A stretch of DNA of 64,000 bases from positions 1-64,000 of IMG/VR virus record IMGVR_UViG_3300033153_011590. One strand, 5' to 3'. Origin of the DNA: an uncultured virus (IMG/VR IMGVR_UViG_3300033153_011590) (lineage: Duplodnaviria; Heunggongvirae; Uroviricota; Caudoviricetes). Of the stretch, positions 3,126 through 46,300 are shown piece after piece. How positions within the stretch are numbered: the first letter of the stretch is position 1; the number at the start of each line of letters is the position of its first letter. The translations under genes were made by a program, and so were the position numbers. The notes under the pieces are model-generated. The model saw nothing but the letters and a program-made list of their open reading frames with translations, had not been told where the DNA came from and did not search any database.

Positions 3126-3305
3126 ATGGCATTATCTGATTGCCCTCATTGTTGGGAAACTCCTTGCGTTTGTGGATACTATTATAGGAATTATGACCCA
3201 GATAGATTATCCGAAATAGTAGTATCTATAGTAACTCACTTTCCACAAGAAGAAGCTGAGTTAATTATTGAAGATGCTCTATCTAAAGTTAAATCCAGAA
3301 CTTAA
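3126..3305 (+). CDS. Small Cys-rich protein (DCPHCWETPCVCG)
   Basis: ATG at 3126 follows the 3123 stop. Confidence 0.65.
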   Translation: MALSDCPHCWETPCVCGYYYRNYDPDRLSEIVVSIVTHFPQEEAELIIEDALSKVKSRT

Positions 3306-3316
3306 AACTTAAAATT

Positions 3317-4288: not shown

Positions 4289-4457
4289 TCAGGCAGGAGC
4301 ACTAAATTTCAACCTTATTGAACAACTAAAACAAGGATATATTGTTGATTTGGGTATGAAATCGGATGAAGATGTTAAAAAAATGTATTCAGAATATCTT
4401 ATCGTCTTAAATTCAGCAAAAATACAATACGAACTTAAAAAAAAGAAAAATGAATAA
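4203..4457 (+). CDS. Hypothetical protein
   Basis: Probable start MSERLITL at 4203 after an A-rich leader; overlaps the upstream 3' end. Confidence 0.55.
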   Translation: MSERLITLTLTELAELVTIGGIFSLALANQAGALNFNLIEQLKQGYIVDLGMKSDEDVKKMYSEYLIVLNSAKIQYELKKKKNE

Positions 4458-5088: not shown

Positions 5089-5113
5089 AAAATCTACTCC
5101 TTTCTCCTAATGC

Positions 5114-5178
5114 AGTTGTAAGTTGCTGATATTGTAGGTCGTTGGCACGGTGACCTACAATATAAAGTAACTTCAATT
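5114..5178. other. Long imperfect intergenic hairpin
   Basis: Core atattgtaggtc/gacctacaatat (12 bp), extended by aagttgct/agtaactt and agttg/caatt with G-U pairs. Confidence 0.75.
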
Positions 5179-5206
5179 AGCTTCAGGAAAATACTATATA
5201 CAATAA

Positions 5207-5473
5207 ATGGAAACAACAGTTAAACTCTTTAAGGTAAGAGACCATCATGCTAAGCATTGTTTACCTGTGAATTCTTTAAACCGAAACAAGATTATAAAAG
5301 TAACTATTGACTCGGTAGTTAAAGACAATCCGAACTTGTTTGATTCTTTTGAAGTCAAATTGACTTCTGGTAAGATGGAAACATTTCCTTATTCATTTTG
5401 TGGACATAATCATAAGAATGTTTTCATTCCTTTATGGTTATATCAGAAAATGGAAAAGGAAGGTCGGTGGTAG
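5207..5473 (+). CDS. Hypothetical protein
   Basis: 88-aa ORF. Confidence 0.7.
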   Translation: METTVKLFKVRDHHAKHCLPVNSLNRNKIIKVTIDSVVKDNPNLFDSFEVKLTSGKMETFPYSFCGHNHKNVFIPLWLYQKMEKEGRW

Positions 5474-5506
5474 AAAATGAATTATAAACCTTTAAAAAAT
5501 GTATAA

Positions 5507-5767
5507 ATGTCAGAATTAAATGGAACTACAAGAACTGACACCCAAAAAGCGAAAATAAAAGTTCGTCTGTTAAGAGGTAATACTATTACCCCAATACAGG
5601 CTTTAAATGTTTTTGGATGTCTAAGATTAGCTGCTGTAATTTTCAAGCTTCGTGATGAAGGTATGAATATTCATACCATTATAGTGAAAAATGAAAATAA
5701 GCAGTATGCAAAATATGTACTGGCTTCATTTAATGAAGACAGTAGACACGGAGTTAACACATTTTAA
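5507..5767 (+). CDS. Winged helix-turn-helix DNA-binding protein
   Basis: L..G.TITP.QA...FGC.RLAA.I..LR..G..I.T pattern of small phage wHTH proteins. Confidence 0.75.
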   Translation: MSELNGTTRTDTQKAKIKVRLLRGNTITPIQALNVFGCLRLAAVIFKLRDEGMNIHTIIVKNENKQYAKYVLASFNEDSRHGVNTF

Positions 5768-26267: not shown

Positions 26268-26285
26268 TGTTCTCCTTTTTTTTTT
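26250..26285. terminator. Bidirectional terminator between the convergent gene blocks
   Basis: aaaaaaggagagca-ataa-tgttctcctttttttttt at the strand switch. Confidence 0.85.
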
Positions 26286-29200
26286 AGTTATCGTGCTCTT
26301 CTAAGAATTCATCAACTTCTTGTTCATATCTACTTTCAGCTAATGATGTTCCTTTACCGTATTCAGTATTTAGTCTGTTTTTACGTGATGTAAGTGTTGG
26401 AAATGCTTTTCCTGCTTTTGCATCTATCTCATTATCACTCCACTTAGCATTAGCAGGTCTTTTTTTGTTTAGCTTGTTAAGTCTAGCTTCTTCTTCATCT
26501 CTTTTAACTTCACGAATTGTTTCATATCTGTCATACTTGTTATAATCAGTAGAGCGTTCAATAAACAAGAATCTCTTATCGAATATTCTATCCATAGAGA
26601 CCGGAGTAGTTAATGGAAGAGGCATTTCTCCTTGACCCATATCGCCCCAATCAGCATTTACATTAACTCCAATGTATTTGAAAATAGAAGGCATAAAAGT
26701 TTTTCCAAGTTTACCTTGTGTTTTAGAACCACCTTGAAATTCTCCGGTAGTTATAATATCTTCAAATCTGTCTAGTTTTTCTGCAGCACCAATCCAATCA
26801 CCAAGTTTGAGTACGAATCTAAGAAAAGTTCCATCGGTACTCATTGTTTGAAGAAGCGACATAGGATTAGCAATTACTCCTAAATCATCCAGTAACATTC
26901 CAGCATTATTAATAACAAAATTTCTTGCCATAATTTGCTTCTTACATTTCCAAGTATCTTCTTCACAGTCAGCAAATTTGTAAAGTAAATTGCTCATAAG
27001 AATAAGATTTATTCTCATACCAATATTTACAAGCAATCCTCTCATAGCACCTGCTTCTTCTCGTGTAAGTCCTAATTTTTTTTCTACATCCATACCTTTG
27101 ATTGTTCTTCTTGTAGCAAGTGCAATAGGTATATTGAGTGTAGTTAATGAGAGTTCTGCCAATGTAACCCAAAGTTCTCTTAATATAGGAACTTGAGATT
27201 TTTCTTTTCGTGTTGCTTCTGCTACTATTCCTGCAACCAATGCTGCTCCTGCACCTATTGCTAGAGGCCAACCAAAAGTTGTTAAACCAAAAGCCCCCAT
27301 TGTAAGAGAAGCTGTAAATAAAGTTGCTGTTATTGGTTTGGCACTCCTCATAACACTTCTATGTCTTATTTTGCCTGCAGCAAGATTAGGGCCATGTCCC
27401 CAATAAGACCATATCATAGCAGGCAACCATCCTAAAAATATCATCCAATATGTTCCAAATTGGGTATTCTTTATCGGGATACCTGCTACATTGGAATAGT
27501 CACCATGTACTATCTTTACATTACTTACAGCATTCTCTCTGAAAGCTCTGTAATCACCACCTGACATTTTTTCCCAATTGTTGATGTTTTCTGTATTCTC
27601 TGTAATACCATCAGCTTGATATCTGAATTCAGGTTTAAGTTGTAATATTCCACCTTTACTTTTTTTCTTAACTTTTTTTCCATCTACAATCTTAGTATAA
27701 GAAGTACCTTTTATTCTTCCTTCTTCGTCAACTTCATTATAAATCAGAAATTCATTACCATTAAATATTTTGGATTTATTTCCATGAGAATCAATGATTT
27801 CTTCATCCATTAAAGTTGATAATATTGTAATAGTTTGATTACGCCATTCAGGAGCTGTAATAGAGAGGTAATAAGGATTAAACTTTTGCTTACCTGTAGT
27901 TTTACCTAAACGGTTACTAGCTCTTTGCTTTTCATTACGCATGTCCTGAATAATCTTAGACCTATCTATAAACATTTCAGCAAGTACAAGATTTTTTCCA
28001 TGACGTTTGTGATGCATAATATCTGCTTTTCCTCTAAGAGGTTGTCGTAAATAGAATTGTTTTCTACCTTTACCCATTACAAAGTTTACAACTCTTAATG
28101 AGTTACCTCTTGTCCATAAATCACCAACAGCATCGTGGAATACATTGGAAATTATACCATAAGCTACATTACGACTACCTGACACAAAGTTAAAAGCCAT
28201 ACCCATGAACATAATAATAGGATGAGCTACTTTGAATGGTAACATCATATCGAATTTTCTTCCCAAATTTTCCATTCTTTCTTGAATAGATTCTTCGTAA
28301 GTTGAAGGTATTGATAGTGTTTCTCCTCTGTGTTTAGCTTCTCTTTCATCTTTGAGTCTTTGTGCAAGTTCTTTGAGGAATTTTCTTTCTTTTTTTTCTT
28401 CAGGAGTCAGCATTTTCTTTCCTATTGGTGCTCCTTTTTCAGCAAAATTACCTTTTACGGCAGTTTCAATCCATTGGTCGACTCTTTTTTCTCCACGAAT
28501 TCTTTGTTCTCCTCCTTCTTTTACAACTTTGCCTCTTTTGTCTTTAATATTTGGTGTTGTTAATTGATTATAATAGTTCTGCATAAGTAAGATAGTAGGT
28601 GCAACTTCATTAGCGGCATCAACTCTTATAGCATGAGAAATAAAATGACGTAATACCTTGGGTAAATCCATACGATGCTGGTCAATAATTTCTCGTCTTG
28701 CACCAGTACGAATTGCTTTTTTTAAGAAATCATAACTGTTATTTTTAAGTTTTATAAACTCATTGAAGTCTTCTTCTATCATAACTTTTTTCAGAAAATC
28801 AACAAGTTCATCTGTTATGGTCACCTTTGCATTGTTAGGAATATCTTTTTTCGATGTTAAAGTCTTTATTTTTATACCATCTGTAATAGTCATTTCAAAA
28901 GTCTTGAGCATACTCTGATAATTACCGTTTTTTCTATCAACAAGTACTTTAGTACTTTTCATATTACCATAATTGATAGATTCTTCATCATTTTCTTTTC
29001 CGGTAAACTCGTATTCTTTTACACCTAATCCTTTTATAATTTTTCCAACTATTTTACTATGAGCATTTTTAACCATAGAACCTAGAGGTAAATCAGTTCT
29101 ACCTATTTGTTTCCGAAATTGTTTCTCCATAGCAAGTAAAGAGTTGAATGTAACTCTGTCTTGACCTACACTGGCTAAAACATTGTTTACATATAATAAT

Positions 29201-31377
29201 ACTTCACTTACTTCATTCCATAATCTGTACATTTCAGAATTATCGCTAATTGTCTCAAATCTTGGGTCTTTATATTTTTCTATGTTTTCATTATTAGGAA
29301 TAAATTCGTTGAATTTTGCATTTGGAGTTATTTGTACAACTTCTCCATCAACTATATGAGAATGTTGATTTGTTTCTGGTACATTAAATACATGAAAAGG
29401 ACTATTTTCCAAATCATATTGTTCAAGAATTTCTCTTTCTTTTGGAGATAAATCATCAACAGTTTTTTCTGGAAATCTTTCTTTAACAAATGCTGCTCTT
29501 TCAAATGTAAACTGGTCAATAAGTTTTATTTGAGAGTCAACAATCCTTTTGTATTCATAATTCTCTTTACCAGTACCTGCACCTATTTTTGCTTTCAGTC
29601 TTTCAGAATACCTTTTTGCATCAACATCACTAGTAAATCTAAAACCAAATCCTGCATTTTTGAATGCTTCTTTAACTTCAGGAAGTCTGCGTATATCAAT
29701 AAATTCACCATCTTTTCTTATTCTTTCAAATCTTTTTTCTTCATCCAATTCAATTGAGGTTTTCAAACTGAACCATTCCGATTTGAAAGGATTTATAAGA
29801 AATTCTGTTTGAAATTCTCTGGAATCCTTCTGATAAAATATAGAGTAGTCACCTTTGATTATACCTCTGAGTTTATGAAATAAGGTATCTATAATAGCCA
29901 TCTTTTCCTGACCATAAGCCATTTTTTCTGAAATCCTGTCAACAAACAAACTACTCATAATTTGAGGAATAACACTTTCTGAAAAGCCTTCTCCTCTTTT
30001 AAAATCATAAGTAAGAGTGGGGTCTAAGAATAATGCAGATAATTTATCAATATCATGAACATCTCCGAAAAGATAATCCATTACATTTCCTTTTTCAATT
30101 TTGGTATCTCCGAATGTATAAGCTTCTATTTTTCCTTTTTCATCCTTTACTTCTTTTATATTTCTATGAGCAATAAATGCAGCCTCGATATGTTTCATAT
30201 TCATATCATCAAGCTTTCCTTGCATTTCTTTGAAATTGTCATAAATTTTCATAAAAGCCTTTTTCATTTTTTCATTATCATATTCCAGACTATCCTTGAA
30301 GAAAGGATGGTTTGCTTTTACAACAAATTCTCCCAAAGACATATACCATGTAATAATGTCACGAGCTTCAATAAGGTCTCTACTGGTTGATTTAGAACTA
30401 AGTAAATTTTGTACTCTTGTCAAATCAGTAGCAGCCATACCTTCAATATTTTCAAGTACAGCTGCTGTAGAAGTTAATTCTTTTTTACGTTCTTTGAGTT
30501 CTTTGATTCTAAGTTGTATTCTTGCTATTTTTTCAGTTAAAGCATGAGATTCAGCTCTATCATAAGTTGTTTTGTTCTTGCCTATAAGTGCATTAAGCCT
30601 TTGTTGAAGTTTGCTAATATCATTAGCAACATATTCTTTATACTTCATGAAATCACCTTGTTTATCACTTCGGGTAAGTTCTCTAGGTAAAGCAGAATCT
30701 TCCATCTCTTCCTGAGTTTCAAAAAGTGGATTACCATAATCATCAAAAGGTTTGAGTATGTGATAATTAGCTTCTTCTTCATTTTGAATAAACTCATTTA
30801 TCATTCTCAAGTTTTCAGCATCAGCTCGTTTTTGGTTTTCAACTTTTATCATATGGTCAATATACGAATCACTAGGATTAATAAGTACATGTCCATTTTG
30901 AACAGATGCAATATCTTGTTCATATCTTGAGTTAATAATACCAGCAGTTCTTGCTGGATTGTCACTATAAAGAGTATTCGTGCCGGCTTTTTTTACATTA
31001 TCATTATGACCTCCTTTAGGTTTGACTGTAGTACCTATTGAAATAGCTTCTTCATATACAATAGATTTCATAACACCCATAGTTATTTTTTTTCTAGGAG
31101 CATCGTCTTCTGCAAATGACTCTGATATGTCGCTTAAAAAAGGTTCATCTAAAAATGCTCTTTTATAAATTGTAGATTTAAGTATAAACGCCTGTTCCTT
31201 ATTTCCTACAATGTCCAGTATTTGCTTGAATAGAACACTTGGATTTCCATCTTTATCAAATTCCAATGAGTATCCATTATTTGCACTTATCAAAGTTAAA
31301 GCAGTGTCCTTACTTCCAAATACTTCTGTTAACTTCTTGAAGTTCTCTTTCGCTATTTTATTCTTAAAACAACTCAT
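26284..31377 (-). CDS. Large virion cargo/ejection protein with C-terminal hydrophobic segments
   Basis: 1697 aa, mostly helical, TM-like LFTASLTMGAFG...LAIGAGAALVAGIVA; lies next to the virion RNAP as in crAss-like phages. Confidence 0.7.
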   Translation of the reverse strand: MSCFKNKIAKENFKKLTEVFGSKDTALTLISANNGYSLEFDKDGNPSVLFKQILDIVGNKEQAFILKSTIYKRAFLDEPFLSDISESFAEDDAPRKKITMGVMKSIVYEEAISIGTTVKPKGGHNDNVKKAGTNTLYSDNPARTAGIINSRYEQDIASVQNGHVLINPSDSYIDHMIKVENQKRADAENLRMINEFIQNEEEANYHILKPFDDYGNPLFETQEEMEDSALPRELTRSDKQGDFMKYKEYVANDISKLQQRLNALIGKNKTTYDRAESHALTEKIARIQLRIKELKERKKELTSTAAVLENIEGMAATDLTRVQNLLSSKSTSRDLIEARDIITWYMSLGEFVVKANHPFFKDSLEYDNEKMKKAFMKIYDNFKEMQGKLDDMNMKHIEAAFIAHRNIKEVKDEKGKIEAYTFGDTKIEKGNVMDYLFGDVHDIDKLSALFLDPTLTYDFKRGEGFSESVIPQIMSSLFVDRISEKMAYGQEKMAIIDTLFHKLRGIIKGDYSIFYQKDSREFQTEFLINPFKSEWFSLKTSIELDEEKRFERIRKDGEFIDIRRLPEVKEAFKNAGFGFRFTSDVDAKRYSERLKAKIGAGTGKENYEYKRIVDSQIKLIDQFTFERAAFVKERFPEKTVDDLSPKEREILEQYDLENSPFHVFNVPETNQHSHIVDGEVVQITPNAKFNEFIPNNENIEKYKDPRFETISDNSEMYRLWNEVSEVLLYVNNVLASVGQDRVTFNSLLAMEKQFRKQIGRTDLPLGSMVKNAHSKIVGKIIKGLGVKEYEFTGKENDEESINYGNMKSTKVLVDRKNGNYQSMLKTFEMTITDGIKIKTLTSKKDIPNNAKVTITDELVDFLKKVMIEEDFNEFIKLKNNSYDFLKKAIRTGARREIIDQHRMDLPKVLRHFISHAIRVDAANEVAPTILLMQNYYNQLTTPNIKDKRGKVVKEGGEQRIRGEKRVDQWIETAVKGNFAEKGAPIGKKMLTPEEKKERKFLKELAQRLKDEREAKHRGETLSIPSTYEESIQERMENLGRKFDMMLPFKVAHPIIMFMGMAFNFVSGSRNVAYGIISNVFHDAVGDLWTRGNSLRVVNFVMGKGRKQFYLRQPLRGKADIMHHKRHGKNLVLAEMFIDRSKIIQDMRNEKQRASNRLGKTTGKQKFNPYYLSITAPEWRNQTITILSTLMDEEIIDSHGNKSKIFNGNEFLIYNEVDEEGRIKGTSYTKIVDGKKVKKKSKGGILQLKPEFRYQADGITENTENINNWEKMSGGDYRAFRENAVSNVKIVHGDYSNVAGIPIKNTQFGTYWMIFLGWLPAMIWSYWGHGPNLAAGKIRHRSVMRSAKPITATLFTASLTMGAFGLTTFGWPLAIGAGAALVAGIVAEATRKEKSQVPILRELWVTLAELSLTTLNIPIALATRRTIKGMDVEKKLGLTREEAGAMRGLLVNIGMRINLILMSNLLYKFADCEEDTWKCKKQIMARNFVINNAGMLLDDLGVIANPMSLLQTMSTDGTFLRFVLKLGDWIGAAEKLDRFEDIITTGEFQGGSKTQGKLGKTFMPSIFKYIGVNVNADWGDMGQGEMPLPLTTPVSMDRIFDKRFLFIERSTDYNKYDRYETIREVKRDEEEARLNKLNKKRPANAKWSDNEIDAKAGKAFPTLTSRKNRLNTEYGKGTSLAESRYEQEVDEFLEEHDN

Positions 31378-34300
31378 TTTCTACATTTAAGATTGTTAAT
31401 ATTTGTATTACCAAAGGTATCATTAATATCATCAACAAGATACTGATATTCGTTGTTGAGTATTTCTTGTCTTTTAGCAGGAGATAAATCAGGCGGATTA
31501 GTTCCTGTTAAATCACCTTCTGAAGGGTGCATTGGGGTAAATGATGCAGGCTTCTTTTCACTGATAAATGTATCTGTAAATGAAGCTTCATTTTCATTAA
31601 TTACAACTTTTTTTGAAGCTCTTGACATTGCAACATAATATAGTGTATTCTTCTCTGAATTTATTTGTTTACCATCAAGCATTATTTTCAAATCTGGTAC
31701 TCTATTCAAACTTTCCATATTAAAATATACATTTTCTACAGTCAACCCTTGACTTTTATGAATTGTAATAGCATATCCATAATCAATTCCTTTATTCAAT
31801 ACCACTTTTCCATGTAAGTTCTTTGGTGTACGTGCTATTATATTCTTATCTTTTTTTACAACTCTGTCATTCTGTATGTCATACATATAATTGTCACCAA
31901 CGTCATATGAACCAAGACTTCTTTCATGTCCTTCAAGTACATTTGTTAATTGTTTTTTTAGTCCCCAATCTCTTGCTGCTGTTGCTACACTAATTTCATT
32001 TACAGTATTTACAATATCTTTAAAAATATCAGAAAGAAGTCTGTTATTGTTTTCCATTTGTTTTTCAGTCAGGTCAAATCCAAGTGAATCATCTAAAGAC
32101 AGTTGCATATATTTTCCTTCAGCCTCTTCAGATACACCTTCATATTTTTCAGCCATTTTACCAAGAACACTAGATTTTCCCTTAATATGAATTATTCCAC
32201 TGTCATCTTTTTTTATTTCTGTTATTTCATATTTAACGCTGTTTGCAATGTCACCATCTTCAATTTGTTTAGTATTGTTTCCACCATAACCAATTACTTG
32301 TTCTCCAACTTTCGGTTCGCCTGAAAATCCAAGCAATTGTCTTGCTGAAGCATTAGATGCTTTTACACCTTTGTTAGTGTAGTCAATAATAACTGTTTCT
32401 TCAGCATTTTCTTTTAGGTCTTTCATTAAGGATGATACAAATTCTTTTGTTGGAACTATTCGAATAGATTCATGTTTTGGTGTCTTGTAACTTTTATAAT
32501 CAATGTTGGTTCTGATTTTTGTAAGTAAATCTAAAAGTGGCCCTTCTGATTGACGATATACTTTATCAAGAACAAATTTAGATAACTCAAAAGCAGGAGA
32601 AACATTTTTTTCCGTAATACCTTTTCTTGTATCTACAACAGGAATTTGTGCAATATCACCCATAAGAATTAGTTTTCCACCTCTATTTTCAACTGCTGCT
32701 TGTAATCCATCAATTTCCTCTTTGCTTAACATTGAGGCTTCATCAACAATCATTAAAGGTGCTCCATATTTTCCTATTCTCTTATTTATTTTAGCACTAA
32801 ACAACCATTCTTTTTCATCACCAATTCTTCTTCCTTGAGCGTCTCTTTTATCAATTGCAAATACTGTACTTTTAACTGTAGAAGGAAGGTGTTTATTTCC
32901 AAGTTTTAAAGTTGCCATTCCAAGTTGTACTGTAGCAAAGTGAGTAGGTGCAACATAAGTTGGTATAAGATGAGATGTGCCTCTTTTTTCCAACATTTTC
33001 TGCAAATATCCAATAATAGTAGTTTTTCCTGTACCGGCACTACCTTGGAGAGTAATTACATTTTGAGCAAGAGCTTGTTTAACAACTTTATTATCTGTAG
33101 CATTACCTTCTACAAAAGAAAGTAATGTTATCAAAGCATCTTTTTGCTCTTTTCCCAATGGAAATTCTGTTTCAATAGTATCTCCTTTGTAAGTAAATTC
33201 TTTTTTACCTGTAGGCGGTTCTACTATTTTGGGCACAGGAGTTGGTTCTGGCTTAGTTGGTGGAGTTGAGGTGATTTCCCCCGTATCAGTATTAACATAT
33301 CGTACAACTTCTTTTTCACTTTCAGTTTCCGCTATAGGACTGATATCATATACAAAGAGTTTTCCTTTTCCATTTATCCAATTTTTAGTTTGAGCAAATT
33401 TGAAATTCTCAACAGAGCCTACATCTTCAGATGCAATCATTGCTTCAACACCTCCTGCTTCTTCAATTGTGAGTTCTCCTCTATTGGTTACAGTAAATGG
33501 TACATCTTCGAATACAACAACTTTAGTTTCTCCTACTGGAATACCAATTTTATCAGCTTCTTTTTTACTCCTTATAGTAGTGGTCTTTGTGCCAGCCTTT
33601 ATCTTAGTAACATTATCAGGTTGCATCCTGATAGTTGCTTGTTCTCCTTCTACACTATATACCTCTCCAGTATCCTCATCCACATAATCAAAAATATTAT
33701 TAAGCATTGTGTTTACTGATGTTTCTTCCTGTTTTGGCTCAACCTGAACAACATCTGCTATAACCATATTCAGGATAACTCCGCTTACAGCATCTAACAT
33801 TGTATTCTCAGCATTAGGATTGAGAGCTTTAAGCATATCTTTGATTATCTTGGTAAACTTATCAAAGAAGTTTGAGTCTTTATATTTCTGCTGTTGCAGC
33901 CTTTCTCTGAAAGTTGGTTCAGTCATAGTAGCTGTAACAAATTCTTTAACATTTGAGAAACCATAAATAAAGATTTCTTCTGGATTCAAAACTCCTTCTT
34001 CTGCCTTCTTTGTTCTCACCTGAGCTAGTTTCTCATCAGTAATTCCAAAGACATCTTTGGCATCTAAAAACATATTGTAAACATCTTTGATATGCTGAGG
34101 AACATCATTAATGGTTATACCCGATTTGAAGTTTCCTTCATGGTCAAAATATTCGTTAAACTCCTTTGATGTAAGACCATGAATATACTCATGCAAAAAT
34201 ACTTCTGCTTGTCTGTTTCTATCTTCTCCGAGTACAACATTTGTAGAGATTGTAGCATGATGTTGTGTAGGATTGTATTTACCATCTTCACCTATAAGTT

Positions 34301-37300
34301 TATCAACACCTATTGTCAATCCTTTATCATTAATAGGAATCAGAACTTTAGCAAGTTCACCTAATGAATCATCTCTGGTAGCAATAGACTGAAGTGTAGT
34401 TTTGGGACTATTTGATAATATACCATAAGCATCTGTAGATTCAGTTGATTCTGGCTGAATAGAAGTTACTTGAGCTGGCTTTACTTTACTGTTCAAGATA
34501 CTGTTTACATTAACTTTCTTAATGTCATACTCACTCATTCCGTGAACACCTACTTGTGGTAATCTGATATAACCTTTTCTGATAACATTTTTGTTATCTG
34601 AATACTCACCATAAATATATACATTAAAATTGTTTTCTACTGTATTCTTTATAGTAAACATAGCATGAGGAGTCTTAGTTCCATCTGCATTTTCAATCTT
34701 AGGTACTAATTCTTCAGGTATATTGTTGAGTTTGCCTACTTTATATTGTTCAAGATTAAGCTTTTTTCTTGTAAAAGAAGGAAGAGTATCAGGATTATGT
34801 TGAAAAAACTGAATAGCAAAATTACTTATACCTGCAGTCATTCCTAATAGTTTTGCCATTACTACTCCATCTGTAATGTCAATATTCTTCATATTATCTG
34901 TGTATCCCATCTCTTCAAGCATTCTTAAAGGAATATATTTTCCAAATTCAATTGGCCCTTGTACACCTCCTGAAAGAAATGAATAAGATGTGAGGTCTTC
35001 AGCTAAATCTACAGTTGTATAAATAGGTTCAATTCTGAATATAGATTTTTCTTGTCCTGCATCAAACTCTTCAGTCTGTTGAGTCCATTTGGTTCTTGGT
35101 TGTCCACTATCCAATACAAAGTTTCCTTCATAGTTATTCTTGGTCATCTTGCCCAAATAAGTAACTTTATACCGGTCACCTCTTGAATTATTATCTTTTG
35201 TCTTGAAAAGCTTTGTTTCACCTTTATTCATCCCCATGTTATTAGCTGTGACAATAACTTGTTTGTCAAAGCTTTCCATTGATTGAATCTCATGAGAAGT
35301 TAAAGCAAATTGTTGTTCCATATACAAGTCACCCTGTTCATTAGGAAGAATAGATTCATCCGATATTGCTTTATTATCAGGAAGAGCTTGAGGGTCTGCT
35401 ATCAAATTTTCGAATGCTACATAAACATTCTTTTCGTTAAAAGCATTATCAGCACTGTTATCAAAGAATATGGTTGATATACCATCATTATTTGATGGTA
35501 TATATTGAAGCATATCATTCAATAAATAATTAGTTGTTATCACATTGTTTTTTGCTGTCTTCAGACCCAACAGGTAAGATGCTAGTGAAGGAGCATCATC
35601 ATGTTCCAAAAACAGTCTTTTACGTTGTCCTTCAGTATTTCCATTTATAATAGTACTTTCCTGACCACTATTGATAAACTTGCGAATACCTTTCATCATA
35701 GTATTTTTGAACTCAACAGCTTCATTCTTACCATATTGAGTTGCTTTGGTCATTCTCATTATTTCATTCATTACATGCTCTACACTATCATTAGTATAAG
35801 GAAATAATGGTTGTCCTATATTGTTTGTTTCAAGAGAAAGAGCATGTCCTGTTGTAATACCTTTAACAATAAGATGGCCCATCATAGTTGTAGGTCTTAT
35901 AAATACATCTCCTACTGAAACATAGCCTGCTCTCATCCACTCTTGTATTGTAGCACTGCTTGCATCTGTTACTTGGTCACCAAATTTAAAATCTCCAATA
36001 ATATCTGTAATGTTCTCAAAATTCTCATCGAAGGCTATATTACTTAATAGTTCATACAAATATGTTGTATTAAACAGAGATTTATCAAGACCATTCTTCA
36101 TAATACCTACTAGTTGTTGCGTAGCACTTAAACTCATACTATATTCCTGAATTCTTAAGAACATAAATAAAGCATTAAGTTGAATACCATTATCAACACC
36201 GTTTTTAGCAGCATCATACATATTTTGAGTAGTCAATATATCATCTGTCTTCAAAGAATCCATTCCGCCAAATTCATCAATAAGTTCAGCAAGCATTTCT
36301 TCATTTGTCGGAAAAATTTTATTGATTTTCGCAGTTCTATTCTGTTTACGCTTAATATACTCTTTTACAATAGGTTGAGAAATTAACAGATATGATATGG
36401 ACATCCTTATAGGTTTGCGAGCTTTATCTAAAACTAACTCTCCATTAGCATCTTTTACATATTCACCCTTATCAAATCCAAGTAAAGTAAGAATGCTATC
36501 TACATTGATAGTTCCAGAGTTCACACCTACCCGGCCCAAGATTTGTTCTTTCTCATTGTCAGTAGCTGTATTCTGACGTTCTGCAAATGCTTCAGAGGTA
36601 GTTCTTATGTCATCCATAATATTTATTTCAATACCACCTTCTTTTTCACTTGTACGATTTCCCTCCTCATCTATGAATATCTTAGTGTCTTTTACTATTT
36701 CACTAATTTCATAATAAGTAAGAGAACCTTCTTTGAGTTTTTCAATTTGAGCAGTTTTGGTTTCTTGCAGACCTTTTTTGGAATTGATAATATCTACAAT
36801 TATTTTGATAGTATTTGAAGACAAGATATTGGTATATCTTCCTAGTTTACCATCAGACTTATAATTTCCTATTGTAAGTCCGGCATCACCAACATTGATT
36901 GAAATGTTAGATGAAGACTGTTGGAGAAGTGAATTGAATACTACAAAGTTAGAATAGACCCCAATAGCCATCTGACCAACAGCACCTAAGTTCATCTTCT
37001 TTGTCTGATATTCATCAGATAAAAGTGTATTGAATTCAGCATCTTCATCTTGAAGCTTTTCAGCCTGTTGTGAAGCATAATCCATTGAAAGCACCTTGTT
37101 AATCCTACGTTGTACTTCAGGATTATCACTACCCATTACTGCAGAGTGTATTCTTACAATCTCATTCTCAAGATATTTTTTCCTTATTTTTTGTAATGCT
37201 TTTATTCGAATTACTACATCTTCTACTGTAGTAGTTTTATATTTTGTACTGTTAAGTATAGCAGCAAGAGCTTTTTCAAGTTTGTTATTTACTTCATCTT

Positions 37301-40300
37301 CAGGAAGATTTTCAATTTCTTTTAATTTTTCGTAGAAATTTGCATCACCAATTCTAATTTGTCTGAGTTCTTCTCTGGCTTCATCAAGCTTAAAACTTAT
37401 TTTATCAATGTCAATGTGTTCATTTAGTGCAACAATTCTTCCATTTTCATCAGTTGCGTGCCATAAATTGTAAGAAAATTCCTTATCAATGTCATAATCA
37501 AGTCCTTTTTGTACAGCAAATTCTTTAGGTACAATCATAAGGTCACCCGCTTCAGGTGGAAGGAATCCTGCAATTTCTACTTGAGATGCAGATACATGAG
37601 AAGAAGTTGGAATTCTGAATGATGTAACATCCAGAAGTTCACCATCAATCATTTTTTCTTTAAGTTGCCATACACCATTTACTTTTCTGACGTACTTACC
37701 TTGATTTCTTTCATTATTATTAGCATCTATAGTTCCTTCAAATAAGTCAATCAGCTCACCTCTGCTGTTTCTAAACCTTGAAGGAATGAGTATTTGAGCT
37801 TTCTTTCCTTTACGAGCTGCAATAAGTCCTGTTTTAGAATTGTAATGCTTCGTATAAATTATTCTTGAAGCAGTCTCTTCATCTTTTACCTTATGTGCAG
37901 TCTCAAATCCTTTCTGTGACCCGGCAACATAAGCATAACCGGGCATCTTAAGTTTTATTAACTTATTGGTAATCAATGAATTGAGTAAAGACTCATAACG
38001 CATTGCATTGGAAGACATCCAAAGAGGATTCCTGAATATAAATCCTGAAATTCCACCTTTTCTATCACCTACATCTATAATCTCAAGAGCATCAATATCT
38101 TGTTGAGGATAATTCCTCTTCTTGGCTTCCCTTTGTAACATAAGAGAAAGTTGTGACATAAAGTACTCAGGATTCAAAGGTTGTCCATTTGAGTTTAATC
38201 CAAGTTCATCATAAAGTTCCTGTTTGAGGTGGTCAGTAAGTTCTCCAAAAGTTTCATTATATGTTTTAAGAAGTTCCTTTCCAGACTTAGGTTTCCCTTT
38301 TCCATATTGAAAACCTTGAATATCTGTTACTCCGTCACCAAAGAGCAGTTTCATCAACTGAGTACCAATTGATACCACACTTGTTTTCTCTTCACTTCCA
38401 AGAGCATGAAAAGGTACATCCTGCTGAATTCTGAAATTCCTTCTATCAAGAGTTACTGATGATTTCTCAAGTTCATCTACAGTAAGTTTTCCTACAGTTA
38501 AGTTGCCTTTGTTATCAACAGCAAATGGGTCAATTTCTGTTACTGTAGCTCCTACTTTTGCACCTGTTTTATAAGTAGCTCTTACATTCATGCCACCTAG
38601 TTCTTTACCATACTGTACCTCATCCATAACTTTTCTGAGGTCTTCCAATGCTGTACCGGCAGTTACTTGAGGAAGTAATGGATAAGCTGATGTTTTAATA
38701 TACATCATTCTCATTTTTTGTCCATCAAAATGAGAACCTGTATATACAGGTTTCATTGGTTGAAAAATAACTCTAAGCTCTTTATCTTCAAGTTTATTTC
38801 TTTTCGTAACACCATTGCGATACTGGTCTTCAGCTTTAGCTGTAAAGTCTTTATGCTCTTGTTCTGATATTCTTCCCAATGCAAATAAAATATCAAGATG
38901 CTCTTTTGCTGTTGTATATTCTTGAGCATCAGTAGAATCTACAGCAAAGAATGCACTAATAGTTGGAAATTCCTCTTTTATAAATCCCTCTTTATTTTCT
39001 TCGGTAGTATCCATAGCCATTATCTCATTGAACCTTTTTACTCCATCTTCACCATAATGTAGTTCAACGATATACTCCATATTGTCAGCAATATCTACAG
39101 AGTCTTTTAAAAACAGTTGCCTGTAATTGGTATCCAAACCATAAGGTTTCAAACCGGGTGCAAGCATTAATGCGAGACGTTTTCCTAGATTTGTACCGAT
39201 ATTTTTAGTCAAGTCTATGTAAGCTTGTTCGTTATCTCCCATATAAGGAAGCGGCTTAACAGTCTCTTTCAGATGTTTATAAGCTATTTTATTTATAATT
39301 CCGGTATTATAAAGAGTTTCAATCTGCTCTATTACAGCTCCGTATTCAATTTCATCAATTTCTTTAAATCTCTTAATAGTTTCTACATCCACTGGAAATT
39401 TATCAAAGGCTTTATCTTGAGAGTAATATGCAATATCGCCTCCAACAGTCTGAAACATGTTGGAATATGATATAAGACTATTGATTACAAAGTCTGTTGC
39501 AGCAAGCTCTGATTTATTATCAACAAACCTTCTTTCACCATCATCAGGATTGAAATACTCATCATTAAGCATTTCTGGATTACCTTTTTCGGTAATAATT
39601 CCTGAGTCTTTCCAGTTCTGAATCTTGTTATTTACCTCTTTGGTAACAACTTTCATAATAATTTTAATAGCCTCATCTTTAATGTCATCTGTAATAACAT
39701 CATCTTTCATTGTCTTTGCTATCTCTTTATCCTGCAAACTAACAAGAACTTCTATAAGTCTTCGGTTACCGATTTTTAACTCATTAAGTTGAGGTATCAT
39801 TAAAAATACTTGAGAAGCTAAATCAACTCCTTCAATATTATTTTCCTGTCCACCTCCTCTATGAAATGCTATAATTCTTTTAAGTTCAGGAACTACAAGC
39901 TGTTGGAATAAGGCTTCTTTTACTGCATCATTAGCTTGTACTTCATTATTCTTATATCCTATTTCTTTTGAGGTAAGGTCGAGAACAGGCATTGTCATTG
40001 TTAATATCTGCTTCTTATCACTCATTGTAGGAAAGAACATATTTGCAATACGTAATTTCAAACCATTATATGTATTGCTGACTGAAATTTTACCTTGCCT
40101 TGTATCCTGAAAAAAGCCTTGTCTTGTAATTTCTTGGTCACCATCAGCAAGATTAATAATAGCATTTTTATTTCCAGTAGGATTGCTTTCTCCTGCTTTA
40201 CGCATTGCAGAACCACCTATATGAACTACTCTAAGTAATTCTTGAATTTCAGTACCATAATCTCCTGTCAGTAATTTCAGTAGCATACTATTTGAAGAAT

Positions 40301-43300
40301 ATGGGTCTTTTTGAAGATTTTTTCTTGTATCAGTATCTTCTTTAAGTTCGTCAATCCGGTCTGTAGCAAATTTGGGTGGTACAAATCCAGAATAACTCTT
40401 TCCTGCATCTCTGAATGAGATAGTAACTGCCCTGCTACTAAAACGGCCCTCTTCTTTAGCTAATGACTTTAATGAAGTTTCAATGCTTCTGAAAGGATGC
40501 ATTTGAGGGTCTTCTGTGATATTAATTTTCCTGCCTTCACTGGTATTGATATACTCTGAAAGTTTGTAAGCTATTCCACCAAATACACCACTTGATTTGG
40601 ATGATTCCTCAAACATTGAAGTGAAGTTTACTTCTTGACCCTTATGGTCAACATATCCGTTGACTTTTAGGCTTTCTATAGTTCTGTTTGAAAGTACAAT
40701 ATTGAATTTTGCTAACCAGTTAATAAGTCTTTCATTTGAGAACTCGGATGTAGGTAACCATTCAATAAGTTCTGTTTTGGAGAAGGTTTTGTTTTCATCA
40801 AGATTTCTGTCAATAGCTTCACTTACTTGTTCTGTAAAAGCACTTTTCTTAGTTTGTGTAAGAATTTTAAGTATTTCTTGTTTTGTATAATCCTTACCAG
40901 CTAGATTTTTAGTAAGCCATTTTACAAATTGATTTGTTTTATTGTCTTTGTTAATACTTTCAACCATTTCACGAAATTCAGTATGAAGTGTTTGTGCTTC
41001 ATCTTTATTAATCATAGAGTCCCGTGAATCTTCATCAACTCTTACAAGTTTAGAAGCTTTTACACCATTCATCCATTCTCTGAATATTACTTTTTCTACC
41101 TGTGAAGAGTTGGTATCAAATACTCTGAGTTCATAACGCTTACTCTTTCTATCATACTTATATTGAACATATTGCATGGTCATATTATGCTTAACCATGT
41201 GAGTCATAAATCTGTTCTTTATCTGCTCAGTCATAATTTTTGGGTCACTGAGCTTAGAAATAACATTTCCTAAAAATGGAACAGCTTCTTTCTCTCTTCC
41301 AAGAATTTTAATTACATCTTCAAAGGTCATTCCTGCTTTAGGATTGCTTCCAATGATGCGTGTAACAATATTGATTGCTACATCGAAAGGTACATAAGTT
41401 GGTACACCTAAAAATCCTTGTATAACAGTACCATCAGTGTAACAGTTTTCAATACCAGCAAAGAACTTCTTCATTTCTTCAGGAAGAGTATTTTTACTTA
41501 CAAGTTCAGTACTTTCTTTGTCAAAAATCCTGTCTTGGCCTTCATGATGATTTTCAAGTTCACTAATAGCTTGATTTTCATCAAGTCCTGCATATTTGTA
41601 TAATTGTACTCTGATGTCATCTTCAAACTTCTTCCAGTTCTTTTCTACAGTATCAAATATTTTCATACTGTCTTTTAGTTCCTGAGAAATTTCTACAAGA
41701 CTCTCAATTTCAGAGCCACTTTCAATAAGAGCATCAAGTTTGTCAATCAAACTCTGAAATTTACTTTTACCTTCAACTATTTGATTAACAAAACCGTTGT
41801 TAATCATTTCTTGAATATTCTCTTTTGTAAGACTTTTCCCACTATTGATAATGGCATTTACTACGGTAAGTACAATTTGTTCTTTCTGTAAAGGATTTAC
41901 ACCCGGTACAGTATGAAAAAAGGCAGGTGTATTCAAAGCCTCTTTGATTAAAGAGAAGTCTTCACTTAAGTCAATCGTTGCAAATAACTTATTAATCTTC
42001 TTTGAACCTAAAAGTCCTAATGCTCTACGTATTTCGATGAGAAGTTTTATTTCATCAGGAGTTTTATTGTCCTCGATAGCTTCTTCAGTGGTCTTACTTT
42101 CAGGTAGTTCCTCAGATAAGGTTTCCATCTGTAAACCTATAATTTCTTCTTTTTTACTAGGTGTCTGAGCTACAGCTTGAGCAGTTCCTTCTTGATTGGT
42201 ATCAATAGAAACTGATGTATTTGTTGCTGTTACATAAAAGGTCTCTCCTCCTGATGTTTCCTCAAAAGCTTTTATATTTGTTGTAAGATTATTTCTCTGA
42301 TGTTCAGTATAATCCATTTCATTTATTATACCGTTCTTTTCGAATGTAGCAATCTTTCCTTCTTTACGAGAATATTCTGAATTGAAACTCTTCTTAAACG
42401 AAGAAGCTTTAGTCTCAATACTTGTCAATAATGTTTCAAGTTCTTTAGCATTAAAATTACTTTCACTCAGATAAATACTTATCATCTTAGTAGTCTTAGG
42501 ACTACCATCTTCGTTTACACCACCTGTAGGAATTCCTTCTCCTTTTATAGCATAAAATATTACTGGCCCATTCATCATCAGAACAGGTTGACCGGGTGCA
42601 ATTTTCGAAGAGTTTACATAAGTCATGAATTTTGTCTTATTCATCTTCTTATCCAACTTCACATCAGAAGGAACATCCATAATTGTGAAGTTATTCAGAT
42701 ATTCTTTTACTCCCCTGAAATCGGAAATAGGATATCCACTAGTAATAGTATGCAGTTTTTCAGTAATAGCTTTACGTGTCTTAGGTGAAATAATATGGTT
42801 GAGTTTACCTTCAGTATCAAACTTTGTAATATAAGCACGCAGTACCCACAATATATTACCACTACCAACAGAATCTTGCTTAGCTCCTTTCTCTAGTCCA
42901 TGTGCAAAAAATGCAGCATACAGTTCCACACCATTTTCATTAATACCTATAAATCTGATATCAATAGGAAGACTTTTTGCATCTACATTCTCATTAAGAA
43001 TTTCATCTTTATTTACAATTTTCCTTTTCTTATTCTCAAAAACTTCAGTGCCTATCCTTATAACACCCCTAATTCTTTGACCGAGAATAGCTGTGGGGTC
43101 TTGTTCAGCAATACTGGTACTTTCTGTCATCTCATCAAAGCGAGGATTACCGATAGGAGCATTGGCATGAATAGCTGCTGTTTTTTTCTTACCATTAACT
43201 ACATCTTTACGAAAAGCAATAGTGTTCTTCTGTGCAGCTCTGATGGCTGCTTCATCATGCGTATCATCAAGCAATAGAGTCTGATAAGTATCAATCCAAG

Positions 43301-46300
43301 CAACCATAGCTCCGTCAGATTCATCTGCAGCACCCATAGGTACATTCTGTTCTCTGTCATTTTCAACTTCAACTTTTCGTAATTTTCCTTCTTTTCCATC
43401 TTTATCAACAATAGTAAGTTCAATATAAGACTTTCCTCCTTCTTTAGAAGGATTGTTTATAATGCGTTTTACTCTGACTTCATGTACATTAGGATTATTG
43501 AGAGCACTGAAATCTCCATCATTCACAACAAAAAAGTCATCAGTGACTTTATGCTGATGATGTCTTGTATTTGGATTTTTTTCATCATTAAGTACAGTTC
43601 CCGGTTCTCTATGGTCATAAGACTTATATTCTACTGCATCTTGCAATCTACCATCAGGGCCAACTTCAGTTGGAACTTGACTGAACTTAAATCCTTCTCC
43701 TTCAATTTCGACTGTTATATTTTTGTATCTGAAATGAGTTATTCTTCCGTATTTATTTTCAAAAAAACCTCCGTAATCACTCTTAGATGTCTTTTCAAAT
43801 TTCTGTTCTTCTCCATTTATTCTATAAACAATTGGAATGTTATAATCCGATTCAGTAGTAATTTTTAAAGCCAGTCTTACACCTTTTTTGAATTTCTTAA
43901 CATTAAAAAGTCTTACACCATCAATGTTAGAATCTTTGACACGAAAGATTTTTATTTTTCGTATTCCAGTCATTAGTGAAATAGGTGCGGATTTATAAGC
44001 TTTGAATTTCAGTGTAATATATCTACCTAAACTATTCACTGTTTCTTCAGCTTCTTCTTTTTCTTCATTAACAATTTCACCTGCTTCTATAGCTTCTTTT
44101 GTTTCCTGTTTTGTTTCTTCATCAATGATATCAGACTCTTCTTCTGTAATTTCATCTTCTTTCTCTTGTTTTACAGGAGTAGTTTCTTTAGGTTCTGCTT
44201 TTACAGTCCTTCCTTTAATCCTGTTTCTGAAACGCTGTAGAGAGTTCTCTGTAGAAAATTCCTCTACAAAATGTTCTTGATATACTTCTTTTCCATTAGT
44301 TTCTCCATGACCACCTTTACTCCAGCCATATTCCAGCATGTCAAACATTGCTTCAGTATCTTCTTTTCTTGAATCAAGTTCATTTTCAGTAAGTTGTTTT
44401 TCATCTAAGCCAAGATAATCCCTAATCATCCTATCAAAGGTTAGATTAGTATCTCCTGCAGATTTGCGATTATTAATCCACTTATTTACCTCTGCTTTGG
44501 CATAATTTTCATCGTCTGGTGTAACTTTGATAGGAGCAGCGTCTTCATCAACATTTTTGTCAGCTTTTCTATTTCTGGTAAATTTTTTGGCAATGTTTTG
44601 TGTCTGACGATGAATCAACTTGTTTTTGCTTACAATAGGAACATAACCTTTAGGGGCCATGCTATTTTGTTGTCTTGACTTTTTAAAGCCATTATACATA
44701 TTCTTATATTTCTTGTATAATATAGCTTCACGCTTCTTACTGAGTTTTTCTCCTTTGAATATTGCACTCATCTTCTGACGGAATTCGTTACCGGTTTCAG
44801 AAGAGAATAAATCAGGAAAATTTTTGGCAACTTTCTGTTCTACTTTTTTAGCAACACGTACATCACGCTGATACTGGTCAGATGTTACATCTTTAAGTTG
44901 GTTTTCAGAATCAATTAATTCTTGAGTTATATCAGCATTGCTAAGTATTGCTTTATTATAATTTGATACATGCTTAACTTTTGGTTTTACTAGCATTCTG
45001 TCACGGAAGGCATCAGCATCCTTACCAGTAAATTTTAAAGTACCATCTTCTTCAAAATAATAGTCAGCATTTTCGAAAGCTTTTTTTCCAGCTTCAAGTT
45101 GTTCTACTGCAGCAGCTTTCAATTCTGCTTCAATTATCATGTCATTCTGAAGAGCTACTTTACTATTAGCTTTTATATCAGTTACTATATCAAAGACAGC
45201 TAAATTATCTTCCCATTTTTGAGTATCAATGTATACTTTTTCAAGTTCAAGAATCTCAGCAATAATATCTTGTGCAGCTTGTTTTTCGTCAACATTTTCT
45301 GAAGTATTAGCTATTTGTTGATATATATCTAACAGTTGTTCTGTCATACCTGTTTTGAAAGCTGTAAGAGCTTGAGAACGAAGTATTAATGCATTTAATG
45401 CTCTTGTATCTTGTCCTGCTGCATTACCTTCTTTGATTTCTTGTTCAAGTTGTGCTTGTTTGAAAGTTGAAGAATTTGAAGTAATAATGTTGAATAATGC
45501 TTTTTTTGCATCTTCAGGAAGAGATTCTACATACTCATTATACTTCTCCATGTAATGTTTGTATGCCTTTTTGTTAGACCTATATGATACTGCTTGAGGA
45601 GCACCCATCATTAAAGCTCCGGCTGCACCCCAAAGCATAGACTCTAAGAGTTCACCTTCCCAAAGTCTGTCAGAGAATTTATCTCCTGTAAGAGTTTCTC
45701 CTTTAGCATAAGCTATTCCTCTCCATTCACCCCAAGGATTTATCCATCCTTCTTCAATCAATGACTCAGAAGCCATTTCAAGTCCTAATACTTTCATAGT
45801 TTTCCCGACAGAAAGGTTTTTTACTGATGCAGCTCTTGTACTTATACTTCCACCTGCAAGGTTCTTATAACCTACTCTCATACGTTTAGCAAATGCACTC
45901 ATATTATTAAGGGCCATACCAAATGGAAAATTCATAAAATACATTGGAGAATTCCCTTTTATCGCAATTCTTGCTGCATGAGCTGATTGTTTTACAATTT
46001 TATTATAGGTTTCTTTATCTTTCAGAACTTCAACAAAAAATCTTTCAACTTCTTCAACTTCATATTGTTGCATCCTAGACATTACTTCTTTTTCATTTCC
46101 TTCTCTTTGAGCTTGACGAAAGTAAATCTGTTGTTGCCTTTCCCAATGTTGTTTCCAAAGTTCTCCACCATATTTTTCAGCGTAGATAAGTTTAGCTTGT
46201 CTCTCAACATCTCTTCCAATTTGTCCTACTTCACTTCCTGCAGGTACAGCACCTGATATTCCAGTTTTCATGGTTGGTACTAAAGTATTTTTAGAAAAAG

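What the first reader, a model, noticed from the sequence alone, without database searches (positions are those of the whole stretch)
31600..33190. Dda/RecD-like SF1B helicase fused to the C-terminus of the virion RNA polymerase
Seen: the last ~550 aa of the 5388-aa ORF carry a full helicase motif series (EQKDA, GSAGTGKTT, APTH, IVDEASM, GD..QI, YRQ, TN, YAITIHKSQG, YVAMSRA), in frame with the RNAP and after a Pro-rich linker (TPPTKPEPTPVPK). Established: crAss-like RNAPs are packaged in the virion and ejected to transcribe early genes. Inference: a helicase delivered with the RNAP could unwind the template, help pull the genome in, or strip host proteins from incoming DNA before any phage gene is expressed.
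Basis: partly seen in the sequence, partly recalled or inferred. Interest (0 to 1): 0.72.

Follow-up and report, generated by a model that had tools for sequence, protein, structure and literature searches.

The report
Pre-loaded helicase replaces phage's free Dda
One unbroken giant gene of an uncultured crAss-like phage joins its RNA polymerase to a motif-complete Dda-type DNA helicase; related phages mostly carry either this fused helicase or a separate one, rarely both, so the phage likely ships its accessory helicase ready-made inside the particle instead of making it after infection.

Summary
The fusion is real. The 5,388-codon frame is unbroken, a second assembly has the junction letter for letter, and 50 of 52 giant proteins with this helicase also carry the polymerase core. 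The helicase is Dda-like (SF1B) with its catalytic residues present. It is not directly on the polymerase: a zincin and an ASCH-like domain lie between, and a conserved terminal Cys peptide follows, so it is an inserted cassette. It is optional: 3 of 119 nearest polymerase relatives have one, and none was found in phi14:2. Added here: fused and stand-alone Dda nearly exclude each other (1 of 8 versus 21 of 26 near-complete records). This phage's usual Dda slot beside the DNA polymerase is empty, and the fused copy comes from another lineage. Best reading: an imported, probably injected replacement for the early accessory helicase, clearing RNA:DNA hybrids and bound proteins from phage DNA. It is not a required polymerase part or a genome pump. 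Packaging and activity are untested. The scan noted this fusion in at least 19 other genomes, and a published supplementary legend lists an SF1 helicase in the crAss transcription block. New variant of a known kind.

The parts
31374..47540 (-). 5,388-aa cargo polyprotein: gp67-like N-terminal part, gp66-like two-barrel RNA polymerase, zincin, ASCH-like domain, Dda-like helicase, terminal Cys peptide
   Evidence: PHROG 16227; colinear with Flavobacterium phage Fpv3 gp32 up to aa 4575; a profile of relatives hits phi14:2 gp67, gp66 and the gp65 zincin in that order
36963..40505 (-). RNA polymerase core region (aa 2346-3526), with DYDID at 37499-37485
   Evidence: BLASTP to phi14:2 gp66 502-1173 (E 1e-16) and 1310-1555 (E 3e-9); PDB 6VR4 E 4e-12
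33711..34403 (-). Zincin-like metalloprotease domain (HEYIH at aa 4450, 34193-34179)
   Evidence: motif in sequence; Pfam SprT-like E 0.0014, below the curated cut-off; HExxH after the polymerase motif in 111 of the 118 listed proteins that have the motif
33306..33653 (-). ASCH-like small domain (GTKTTTIR); tentative
   Evidence: 46% identical to a unit before the helicase of P0036; Atlas lead 0.89 to a cluster with 11% ASCH members; no Pfam or PHROG hit; single-sequence fold failed. The ASCH signature is recalled.
33228..33266 (-). Pro-rich linker TPPTKPEPTPVPK (aa 4759-4771)
   Evidence: stand-alone homologues begin right after the equivalent position
31596..33203 (-). Dda-like SF1B helicase (aa about 4780-5315); Walker A at 33044, DEASM at 32744, TIHKSQG, YVAMSRA
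31374..31448 (-). Conserved C-terminal peptide ending in Cys5386; it lies after the helicase
   Evidence: 58% identical over 24 aa to the very end of the helicase-less nearest relative P0059 (E 3e-6); Cys in the last 8 residues of 118 of 119 relatives at a background Cys frequency of 0.04%
26284..31377 (-). Next cargo gene (1,697 aa), overlapping the stop codon, with Cys at residue 3
   Evidence: homologous to Fpv3 gp33 (E 3e-30)
3000..5690 (+). Slot upstream of the DNA polymerase gene (5691-7775) where relatives keep a stand-alone Dda; no Dda here
   Evidence: stand-alone Dda lies upstream of the DNA polymerase on the same strand in 21 of 21 relatives, within 3 kb in 20; the only Dda match in G000 is the fused one

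Best explanation
The gene encodes one chain that holds a crAss-type RNA polymerase and a motif-complete Dda-type helicase, and the helicase is likely an imported replacement for the phage's ordinary early Dda that would be packed and injected with the polymerase and would act as a tethered 5'-to-3' clean-up motor on the phage DNA. Shown: one frame; catalytic residues present; the cassette is inserted between the zincin and the terminal Cys peptide; it comes from a helicase clade other than the stand-alone Ddas of this phage's relatives; and no stand-alone Dda is at its usual place. Inferred: (1) the chain is made as a middle/late product and packed, as phi14:2 gp65-67 and crAss001 gp47/49/50 are; (2) it is threaded partly unfolded through the tail and refolds; (3) the helicase loads on single-stranded DNA exposed by the attached polymerase and moves 5' to 3'. 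On the non-template strand it would travel with the polymerase and push off bound proteins; on the template strand it would strip the transcript from RNA:DNA hybrids; (4) injected and newly made copies together cover the replication-linked job of the stand-alone gene, which is why that gene could be lost. The polymerase chain is mainly a delivery vehicle, and the helicase is a helper, not a required subunit.
For: Unbroken frame and second assembly. Eight catalytic positions are unchanged in 52 of 52 aligned rows (the query and 51 of 52 hits; P0056 left out). Fold and profile are closest to Dda. Near exclusion: among records at least 84% complete, a stand-alone Dda is present in 1 of 8 with a fused helicase and in 21 of 26 without (Fisher p 0.001, not corrected for kinship). 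The syntenic slot is empty. The AU test rejects grouping this helicase with 20 stand-alone Ddas of relatives (p 3e-6). Its nearest helicases sit on polymerases ranked 16th and 20th of 48. Fused Ddas fall in at least three separate lineages, one inserted inside the polymerase core (P0144, L134) and one in a protein with an N4-type polymerase domain (P0056). The same tail carries swappable NADAR, 2OG-Fe(II), SLOG and DUF7831 domains in relatives. Dda moves directionally on single strands and displaces bound proteins (PMC1616963). gp66 reads single-stranded DNA well and double-stranded DNA poorly (bioRxiv 2020.03.07.982082). N4 virion polymerase leaves RNA:DNA hybrids and needs SSB to recycle its template (PMC4496689).
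Against: No proteomics, reads or activity data exist for any phage with the fusion, and none of 476 annotated phage records hit by the helicase matched above about 27% among the 50 listed. The zincin could cut the helicase off before packaging. About 9 kb of the genome is unseen (G000 plus G039 cover about 86 kb of an estimated 95). G037 has both forms. Five of 26 records without a fusion have no Dda match at all, so loss needs no replacement. The nearest helicase-less relatives (P0059, P0060, P0062) have no complete genome at hand (G040 is 42% complete), so the stand-alone gene may have been lost before the cassette arrived. Eight stand-alone gut helicases nest inside the fused clade, so attachment is not needed for this clade to work.
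Confidence: 0.45

Rival explanations
1. Dedicated transcription factor: the helicase opens duplex DNA ahead of the single-strand-preferring virion polymerase and is what lets these phages start early transcription.
For: gp66 is weak on double-stranded DNA, and its relative QDE-1 needs a helicase and RPA. Movement 5' to 3' on the non-template strand matches the polymerase's direction (inference). The helicase was captured repeatedly, including an insertion between the connector and the catalytic motif in P0144 and L134. In 40 of 49 fused proteins no HExxH lies between polymerase motif and helicase.
Against: Only 3 of 119 nearest relatives carry one. No Dda was found in phi14:2, which still transcribes early genes. 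A stand-alone early gene cannot serve the first round of transcription, yet it is what the fusion replaces.
Confidence: 0.2
2. The helicase works only in the cell that makes it, as a replication or recombination helper; the fusion is a way to express it, and the domain is cut off or idle in the particle.
For: The polymerase gene is transcribed from the middle phase on in phi14:2. The stand-alone gene sits beside the DNA polymerase in 21 of 21 relatives. A zincin lies upstream in the same chain, and polyprotein cleavage has been proposed.
Against: The helicase lies upstream of the terminal Cys shared with virion proteins gp66 and gp67, and no ATG lies between the linker and the helicase core (only GTG and TTG codons). 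An insertion inside the polymerase core cannot be released without cutting that chain (inference).
Confidence: 0.2
3. Counter-defence cargo: the helicase removes host restriction, RecBCD, Cas or nucleoid proteins from the incoming DNA, or works with neighbouring repair-type domains.
For: Relatives carry NADAR, 2OG-Fe(II), SLOG, ART and kinase domains in the same chains, typical of polyvalent proteins (PMC5512222). Dda displaces bound proteins. The patchy, horizontally swapped distribution fits conflict genes.
Against: It does not explain why the stand-alone Dda is missing when the fusion is present. Dda needs a single-stranded loading site.
Confidence: 0.11
4. Genome-pulling motor: the injected helicase grips the entering DNA and reels it in.
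For: It is an ATP-driven motor in a chain expected to exit before the DNA (PMC10172136).
Against: Dda moves on single strands. Most relatives lack the fusion.
Confidence: 0.03
5. Assembly or gene-calling artefact.
For: The twin contig G039 has a 56-base frameshifting deletion in this gene. No sequencing run was available to check reads.
Against: That deletion lies about 2.7 kb from the junction, G039 has a second such deletion elsewhere, and the window's version aligns through the site with 4 of 5 relatives tested. The junction is identical in both contigs, and 50 other giant proteins share the architecture.
Confidence: 0.01

Closest known systems
Cellulophaga phage phi14:2 gp67-gp66-gp65 (gp66 = virion RNA polymerase, PDB 6VR4; Drobysheva et al., bioRxiv 10.1101/2020.03.07.982082)
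   Same: Homologous polymerase core and DxDxD motif; same order gp67-like, gp66-like, zincin; terminal cysteines at the ends that face each other; same place after the tail genes.
   Different: phi14:2 has three separate genes and no Dda match anywhere. Here the gp67-like part, polymerase and zincin are one chain that also holds an ASCH-like domain and the helicase.
Flavobacterium psychrophilum phages Fpv1-Fpv4 (Fipvunavirus), gp32, 4,287 aa
   Same: Closest cultured relatives: 40% identity in the polymerase core, colinear through the zincin, terminal Cys.
   Different: gp32 ends about 220 aa after its HExxH motif with no helicase. These phages have a stand-alone Dda (one piece in Fpv1, Fpv2, Fpv20, FpV21; two pieces in Fpv3).
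T4 Dda (PDB 3UPU) and Dda-like SF1B helicases (8JX6, 9KWF)
   Same: Best profile match (E 5e-31) and top fold matches; Walker A, APTH, DExSM, GDxxQ, HKxQG; a hairpin with a conserved Phe aligned to the Dda pin region.
   Different: About 15-17% identity in the structural alignments, a longer 2B region (530 against about 440 aa), and part of a virion polyprotein, where T4 Dda is a free protein.
Polyvalent proteins of phages (Iyer et al. 2017, PMC5512222), including N4-type virion polymerases fused to zincins
   Same: Giant virion-linked chain with a zincin and swappable enzyme domains; relatives hit ART-PolyVal and Kinase-PolyVal.
   Different: The passages read name SF2 (SWI2/SNF2) and UvrD-like helicases, not Dda-type helicases on two-barrel polymerases (passages only).
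Zeta-group crAss transcription block (Yutin et al. 2021, PMC7886860, Supplementary Figure 13)
   Same: The legend lists an SF1 helicase, a metalloprotease and polymerase domains among the domains mapped in the transcription block.
   Different: I saw only the legend text, not the drawing, so whether a fusion is shown is unknown. The main-text passages read do not discuss it.

Membership tests
Dda-like SF1B helicase | SF1 motifs Q, I, Ia, II, III, IV, V, VI with catalytic residues | tested here: met
   K4839, T4840, D4933, E4934, Q4965, R4996, Q5264, R5307 unchanged in 52 of 52 rows
Dda-like SF1B helicase | Closer to Dda than to RecD, RecD2 or Pif1 | tested here: met
   profile E 5e-31 to T4 Dda, 2e-18 to Pif1, 6e-12 to RecD, 1e-6 to RecD2; Foldseek ranks 1-3 are DSH9 and Dda; PHROG 325
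Dda-like SF1B helicase | Pin hairpin with an aromatic residue | tested here: met
   modelled hairpin at model residues 103-124; Phe at 124 in at least 90% of 31 rows, aligned to the Phe of Dda 'NVLFEQK'. That this Phe is the Dda pin residue is recalled.
Dda-like SF1B helicase | ATP-driven 5'-to-3' translocation and unwinding | not testable with these tools
   inferred from family only
RecD2 / RecD of RecBCD | N-terminal HhH and RecD2-specific domains | tested here: not met
   no such Pfam hits in the helicase or the 750 aa before it, while RecD2 hits carry PF14520, PF14490, PF23139
crAss-type virion RNA polymerase (gp66) | DxDxD catalytic motif in a gp66-homologous core | tested here: met
   DYDID aa 3348; 6VR4 E 4e-12; alignment with gp66
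crAss-type virion RNA polymerase (gp66) | Gene lies in the cargo block after the ring and muzzle tail genes | tested here: met
   CrAss_Ring_1 at 55624-56622 and crAss_MUZ at 50577-55658
crAss-type virion RNA polymerase (gp66) | Packed in the virion, injected, transcribes early genes | not testable with these tools
   shown for phi14:2; crAss001 counterparts found in virions; not shown for this phage
Polyvalent proteins (Iyer 2017) | Zincin-like metallopeptidase domain | tested here: met
   HEYIH; SprT-like E 0.0014; profile match to the gp65 zincin E 1e-11
Polyvalent proteins (Iyer 2017) | Variable set of enzyme domains among relatives, next to virion genes | tested here: met
   NADAR, 2OG-Fe(II), cpYpsA, DUF7831; ART-PolyVal, Kinase-PolyVal, AAA_33
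ASCH domain (aa 4630-4745) | GxKxxTxR motif (recalled) and PUA-like barrel | tested here: inconclusive
   motif present; no Pfam or PHROG hit; Atlas lead under 0.9; model pLDDT 42

The most novel reading that the evidence does not exclude
Virion polymerases that read only single-stranded DNA have repeatedly recruited a Dda motor onto, and even into, their own chain because the tethered helicase runs along the non-template strand and feeds them template: a helicase-driven transcription machine injected as one cysteine-tipped thread. The free Dda of most crAss-like phages would be the unfused partner of the same machine.
Probability: 0.2. Interest if true: 0.78.

Novelty: new variant of a known kind. 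Interest (0 to 1): 0.5.

Why it matters
How the crAss virion polymerase gets single-stranded template from a double-stranded genome is an open point in the phi14:2 work. The either-or pattern of fused and free Dda ties an accessory helicase to the injected polymerase chain and gives a direct test: compare wild-type and Walker-A mutant chains on duplex DNA, and knock out the free Dda in the cultured Fpv phages. It also shows that the tail of this cargo protein is a docking site through which phages swap enzymes and move early functions into the particle. The fusion itself is common in uncultured phages, so this locus is one more example, not a unique system.

Tried and rejected
The VIA structural comparison did not complete, so the fold match rests on Foldseek and HMMER. 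The single-sequence fold of the ASCH-like unit gave pLDDT 42 and was not searched. Codon test for foreign origin: the helicase has low synonymous GC3 (z -3.7), but N-terminal windows of the same gene reach -3.5, so it is inconclusive. hmmsearch with default filters missed all three helicases among the 120 relatives; counts use --max. A locus search with the window's DNA polymerase found no relatives. I considered a Z-base (2-aminoadenine) genome as a reason for needing a helicase and rejected it: the PurA-like gene has GDEGKG, the PurA-type motif by recall. Relocation of the phage's own Dda into the cargo gene was rejected by the AU test. RecD2 and Pif1 labels were rejected. No complex prediction was run, since no binding claim is made. 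Literature: 10 searches turned up no paper that describes the fusion in its text; the library lacks most subscription papers, Yutin 2018 was not read, figures cannot be seen, and bioRxiv supplements are closed.

Full report
Observation. The minus-strand ORF 47540..31374 is 5,388 aa with no internal stop. The last 638 aa hit Pfam AAA_30, AAA_19 and UvrD_C_2 and PHROG 325, Dda-like helicase, at E 3e-56. A profile of the clade finds T4 Dda first (E 5e-31), ahead of Pif1, RecD and RecD2. An AlphaFold2 model from 31 sequences (pLDDT 89.8) matches Deep-Sea Helicase 9, T4 Dda and RecD2. Eight catalytic positions are unchanged in the query and 51 homologues.

Context. The window is a crAss-like phage fragment (G000, 72,182 bases, 76% complete), with ring and muzzle genes upstream of the ORF and a convergent replication block. 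The polymerase core matches phi14:2 gp66, and the closest cultured relatives are Flavobacterium Fpv phages at 40%. The chain reads: gp67-like part, polymerase (DYDID at 3348), zincin (HEYIH at 4450), ASCH-like unit, linker, helicase (about 4780-5315), and a 73-aa tail. So the helicase is on the polymerase chain but not next to the polymerase.

Not an artefact. A second contig (G039) has the junction letter for letter. It carries a 56-base frameshifting deletion 2.7 kb upstream and a 46-base one in another gene; the window's version aligns through the first site with 4 of 5 relatives, so the window looks like the intact form. No reads were listed. A search with the helicase among proteins of 2,963-9,429 aa gave 52 hits; 50 of them have the polymerase catalytic region. 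One of the other two has an N4-type polymerase domain (P0056).

An inserted, optional cassette. The nearest polymerase relatives (P0059, P0060, P0062; 46-54% in the core) align up to about aa 4600 and then end. The last 24 aa of the query match the last 24 aa of P0059 at 58%, so the ASCH-like unit and helicase were inserted inside the gene. That tail ends in a cysteine found in the last 8 residues of 118 of 119 relatives and 46 of 52 helicase-bearing proteins, at a background of 0.04%; phi14:2 gp67 and gp66 end the same way, and gp66 and gp65 start with Cys3, as the next gene does here. A fused SF1B helicase is present in 3 of the 119 best-scoring relatives listed (of 338 hits), in the tail of 8 of 63 closed ORFs from viral loci and in 9 of 44 from metagenome loci. 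These sets overlap and were not de-duplicated. Other relatives put NADAR, 2OG-Fe(II), SLOG, DUF7831, ART or kinase domains in the same chains.

Horizontal origin and repeated capture. The query's helicase lies in a 69-member clade dominated by cargo fusions (support 0.91, FastTree). Its two nearest helicases are on polymerases ranked 16th and 20th of 48, while the four nearest helicase-bearing polymerases have helicases ranked 41-47. The two trees agree only loosely (Mantel rho 0.33, 49 rows). A 60-row IQ-TREE quick tree separates this clade (SH-aLRT 100), a second fused group (94: P0061, P0144, L117, L118, L120, L122, L125) and fused rows mixed with free Ddas (97: P0054, P0055, P0056); long branches make some placements unsure. 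In P0144 and L134 the helicase sits inside the polymerase, at a site matching gp66 1260-1310, between the connector (1095-1238) and the catalytic motif. Eight free helicases of gut phages nest inside the query's clade, so the module can also leave the chain.

Either fused or free. I searched whole records with a Dda profile: 29 picked by polymerase (the contigs of 80 kb or more among the 68 loci) and 9 picked by fused helicase; two more handles were not held. Of the 29, 3 have a fused helicase and no second copy, 21 have a free Dda and 5 have none. Of the 9, one (G037) has both. Dropping four fused records under 84% complete gives 1 of 8 against 21 of 26 (Fisher p 0.001); the polymerase-picked set alone gives 0 of 3 against 21 of 26 (p 0.015). 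Kinship is not corrected for. Ten further partial records with a fusion show no second copy, which is weak evidence. The free gene lies upstream of the DNA polymerase on the same strand in 21 of 21 cases, within 3 kb in 20. That stretch is inside this window and holds no Dda; G000 and G039 each give only the fused match. About 9 kb of the genome is unseen. The free Ddas of these relatives form their own clade, and forcing the query into it is rejected (p-AU 3e-6). The fused copy is thus an imported replacement, not the phage's own gene moved. Whether the free gene was lost before or after the import is unknown.

Mechanism. From papers: gp66 is packed, injected, and reads single-stranded DNA far better than duplex DNA; its gene is transcribed in the middle and late phases (bioRxiv 2020.03.07.982082, parts 1-2 of 6 read). 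crAss001 cargo must unfold partly to pass the tail (PMC10172136, passages). Dda is a monomeric directional motor on single strands that displaces bound proteins (PMC1616963, passages). N4 virion polymerase needs gyrase and SSB for promoter opening and template recycling (PMC4496689, passages). My best reading (0.45) is that the helicase rides in the injected chain and acts as a tethered clean-up motor on single-stranded DNA exposed by the polymerase, and that it covers the job of the free early Dda. A dedicated template-opening role (0.2) is attractive by polarity and by the insertion inside the polymerase, but no Dda was found in phi14:2 and most relatives lack the fusion. An in-cell-only role (0.2) and counter-defence (0.11) remain open. 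Genome pulling (0.03) does not fit a single-strand motor. Packaging, polarity and activity are all inferred.

Novelty. The parts are known. Ten literature searches found no text describing the fusion, but the legend of Supplementary Figure 13 in PMC7886860 lists an SF1 helicase among the domains of the Zeta-group transcription block (legend text only), so it may already be drawn. Polyvalent proteins are the general class (PMC5512222, passages). PMC12386605 and bioRxiv 2020.07.20.212944 (passages) add nothing on a fusion. This scan has 20 earlier notes in at least 19 genomes on the same fusion and 10 on the terminal cysteines; a look-up on mutual exclusion with free Dda returned none. I class it as a new variant of a known kind, interest 0.5: real and testable, but common, optional and partly anticipated.

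Noticed in passing
window 31383-31385 and 31369-31371 (Cys5386 of the polyprotein; Cys3 of the next gene): Facing terminal cysteines in nearly Cys-free cargo proteins: 59 of 63 closed polymerase ORFs end with a Cys in the last 8 residues, and 56 of 60 next genes have one in the first 10; also in phi14:2. Possible head-to-tail link; the scan has noted it before.
   Followed up: partly
P0144; L134 (helicase at aa about 3500-3900 of a 5,530-aa frame): A Dda helicase of another lineage is inserted inside the polymerase core. P0153, P0126 and P0169 have other inserts at the same loop (query aa 3213-3226), so it is an insertion hot spot.
   Followed up: partly
G037:C1:27532-29082 (+) and 37073-39637 (-): One genome has both a cargo-fused helicase (in a separate 1,174-aa cargo protein) and a related free copy about 8 kb away on the other strand; the free copy has an intein-like insert in its Walker A motif (intein ends judged by eye).
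   Followed up: partly
window 35917-35972 and about 21554-21599: The 99.9% identical contig G039 lacks 56 and 46 bases here; neither length is a multiple of three. The two missing stretches share a GCTA...ACAATA-like word. Cause unknown.
   Followed up: partly
window 10116-11285: Adenylosuccinate synthetase homologue beside the replication genes, with GDEGKG (PurA type by recall, not PurZ).
   Followed up: partly
window 19138-21072: Adjacent weak Prok-JAB-like (E 0.01) and ThiF-family (E 1.5e-13) genes, a ubiquitin-like pair.
   Followed up: no
window 35016-35393: About 120 aa of the polyprotein (aa 4055-4174) are missing from P0077 and P0144 and partly from Fpv3 gp32; no family hit.
   Followed up: partly
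window 5691-7775: The DNA polymerase is of the PolB-like type (PHROG 1252), whereas 7 of 7 relatives scanned have PolA at this position; polymerase switching is known in these phages.
   Followed up: no
P0056: A 4,560-aa protein with an N4 virion-polymerase domain, a Dda-like helicase and a weak NADAR hit: the same capture on an unrelated polymerase.
   Followed up: partly
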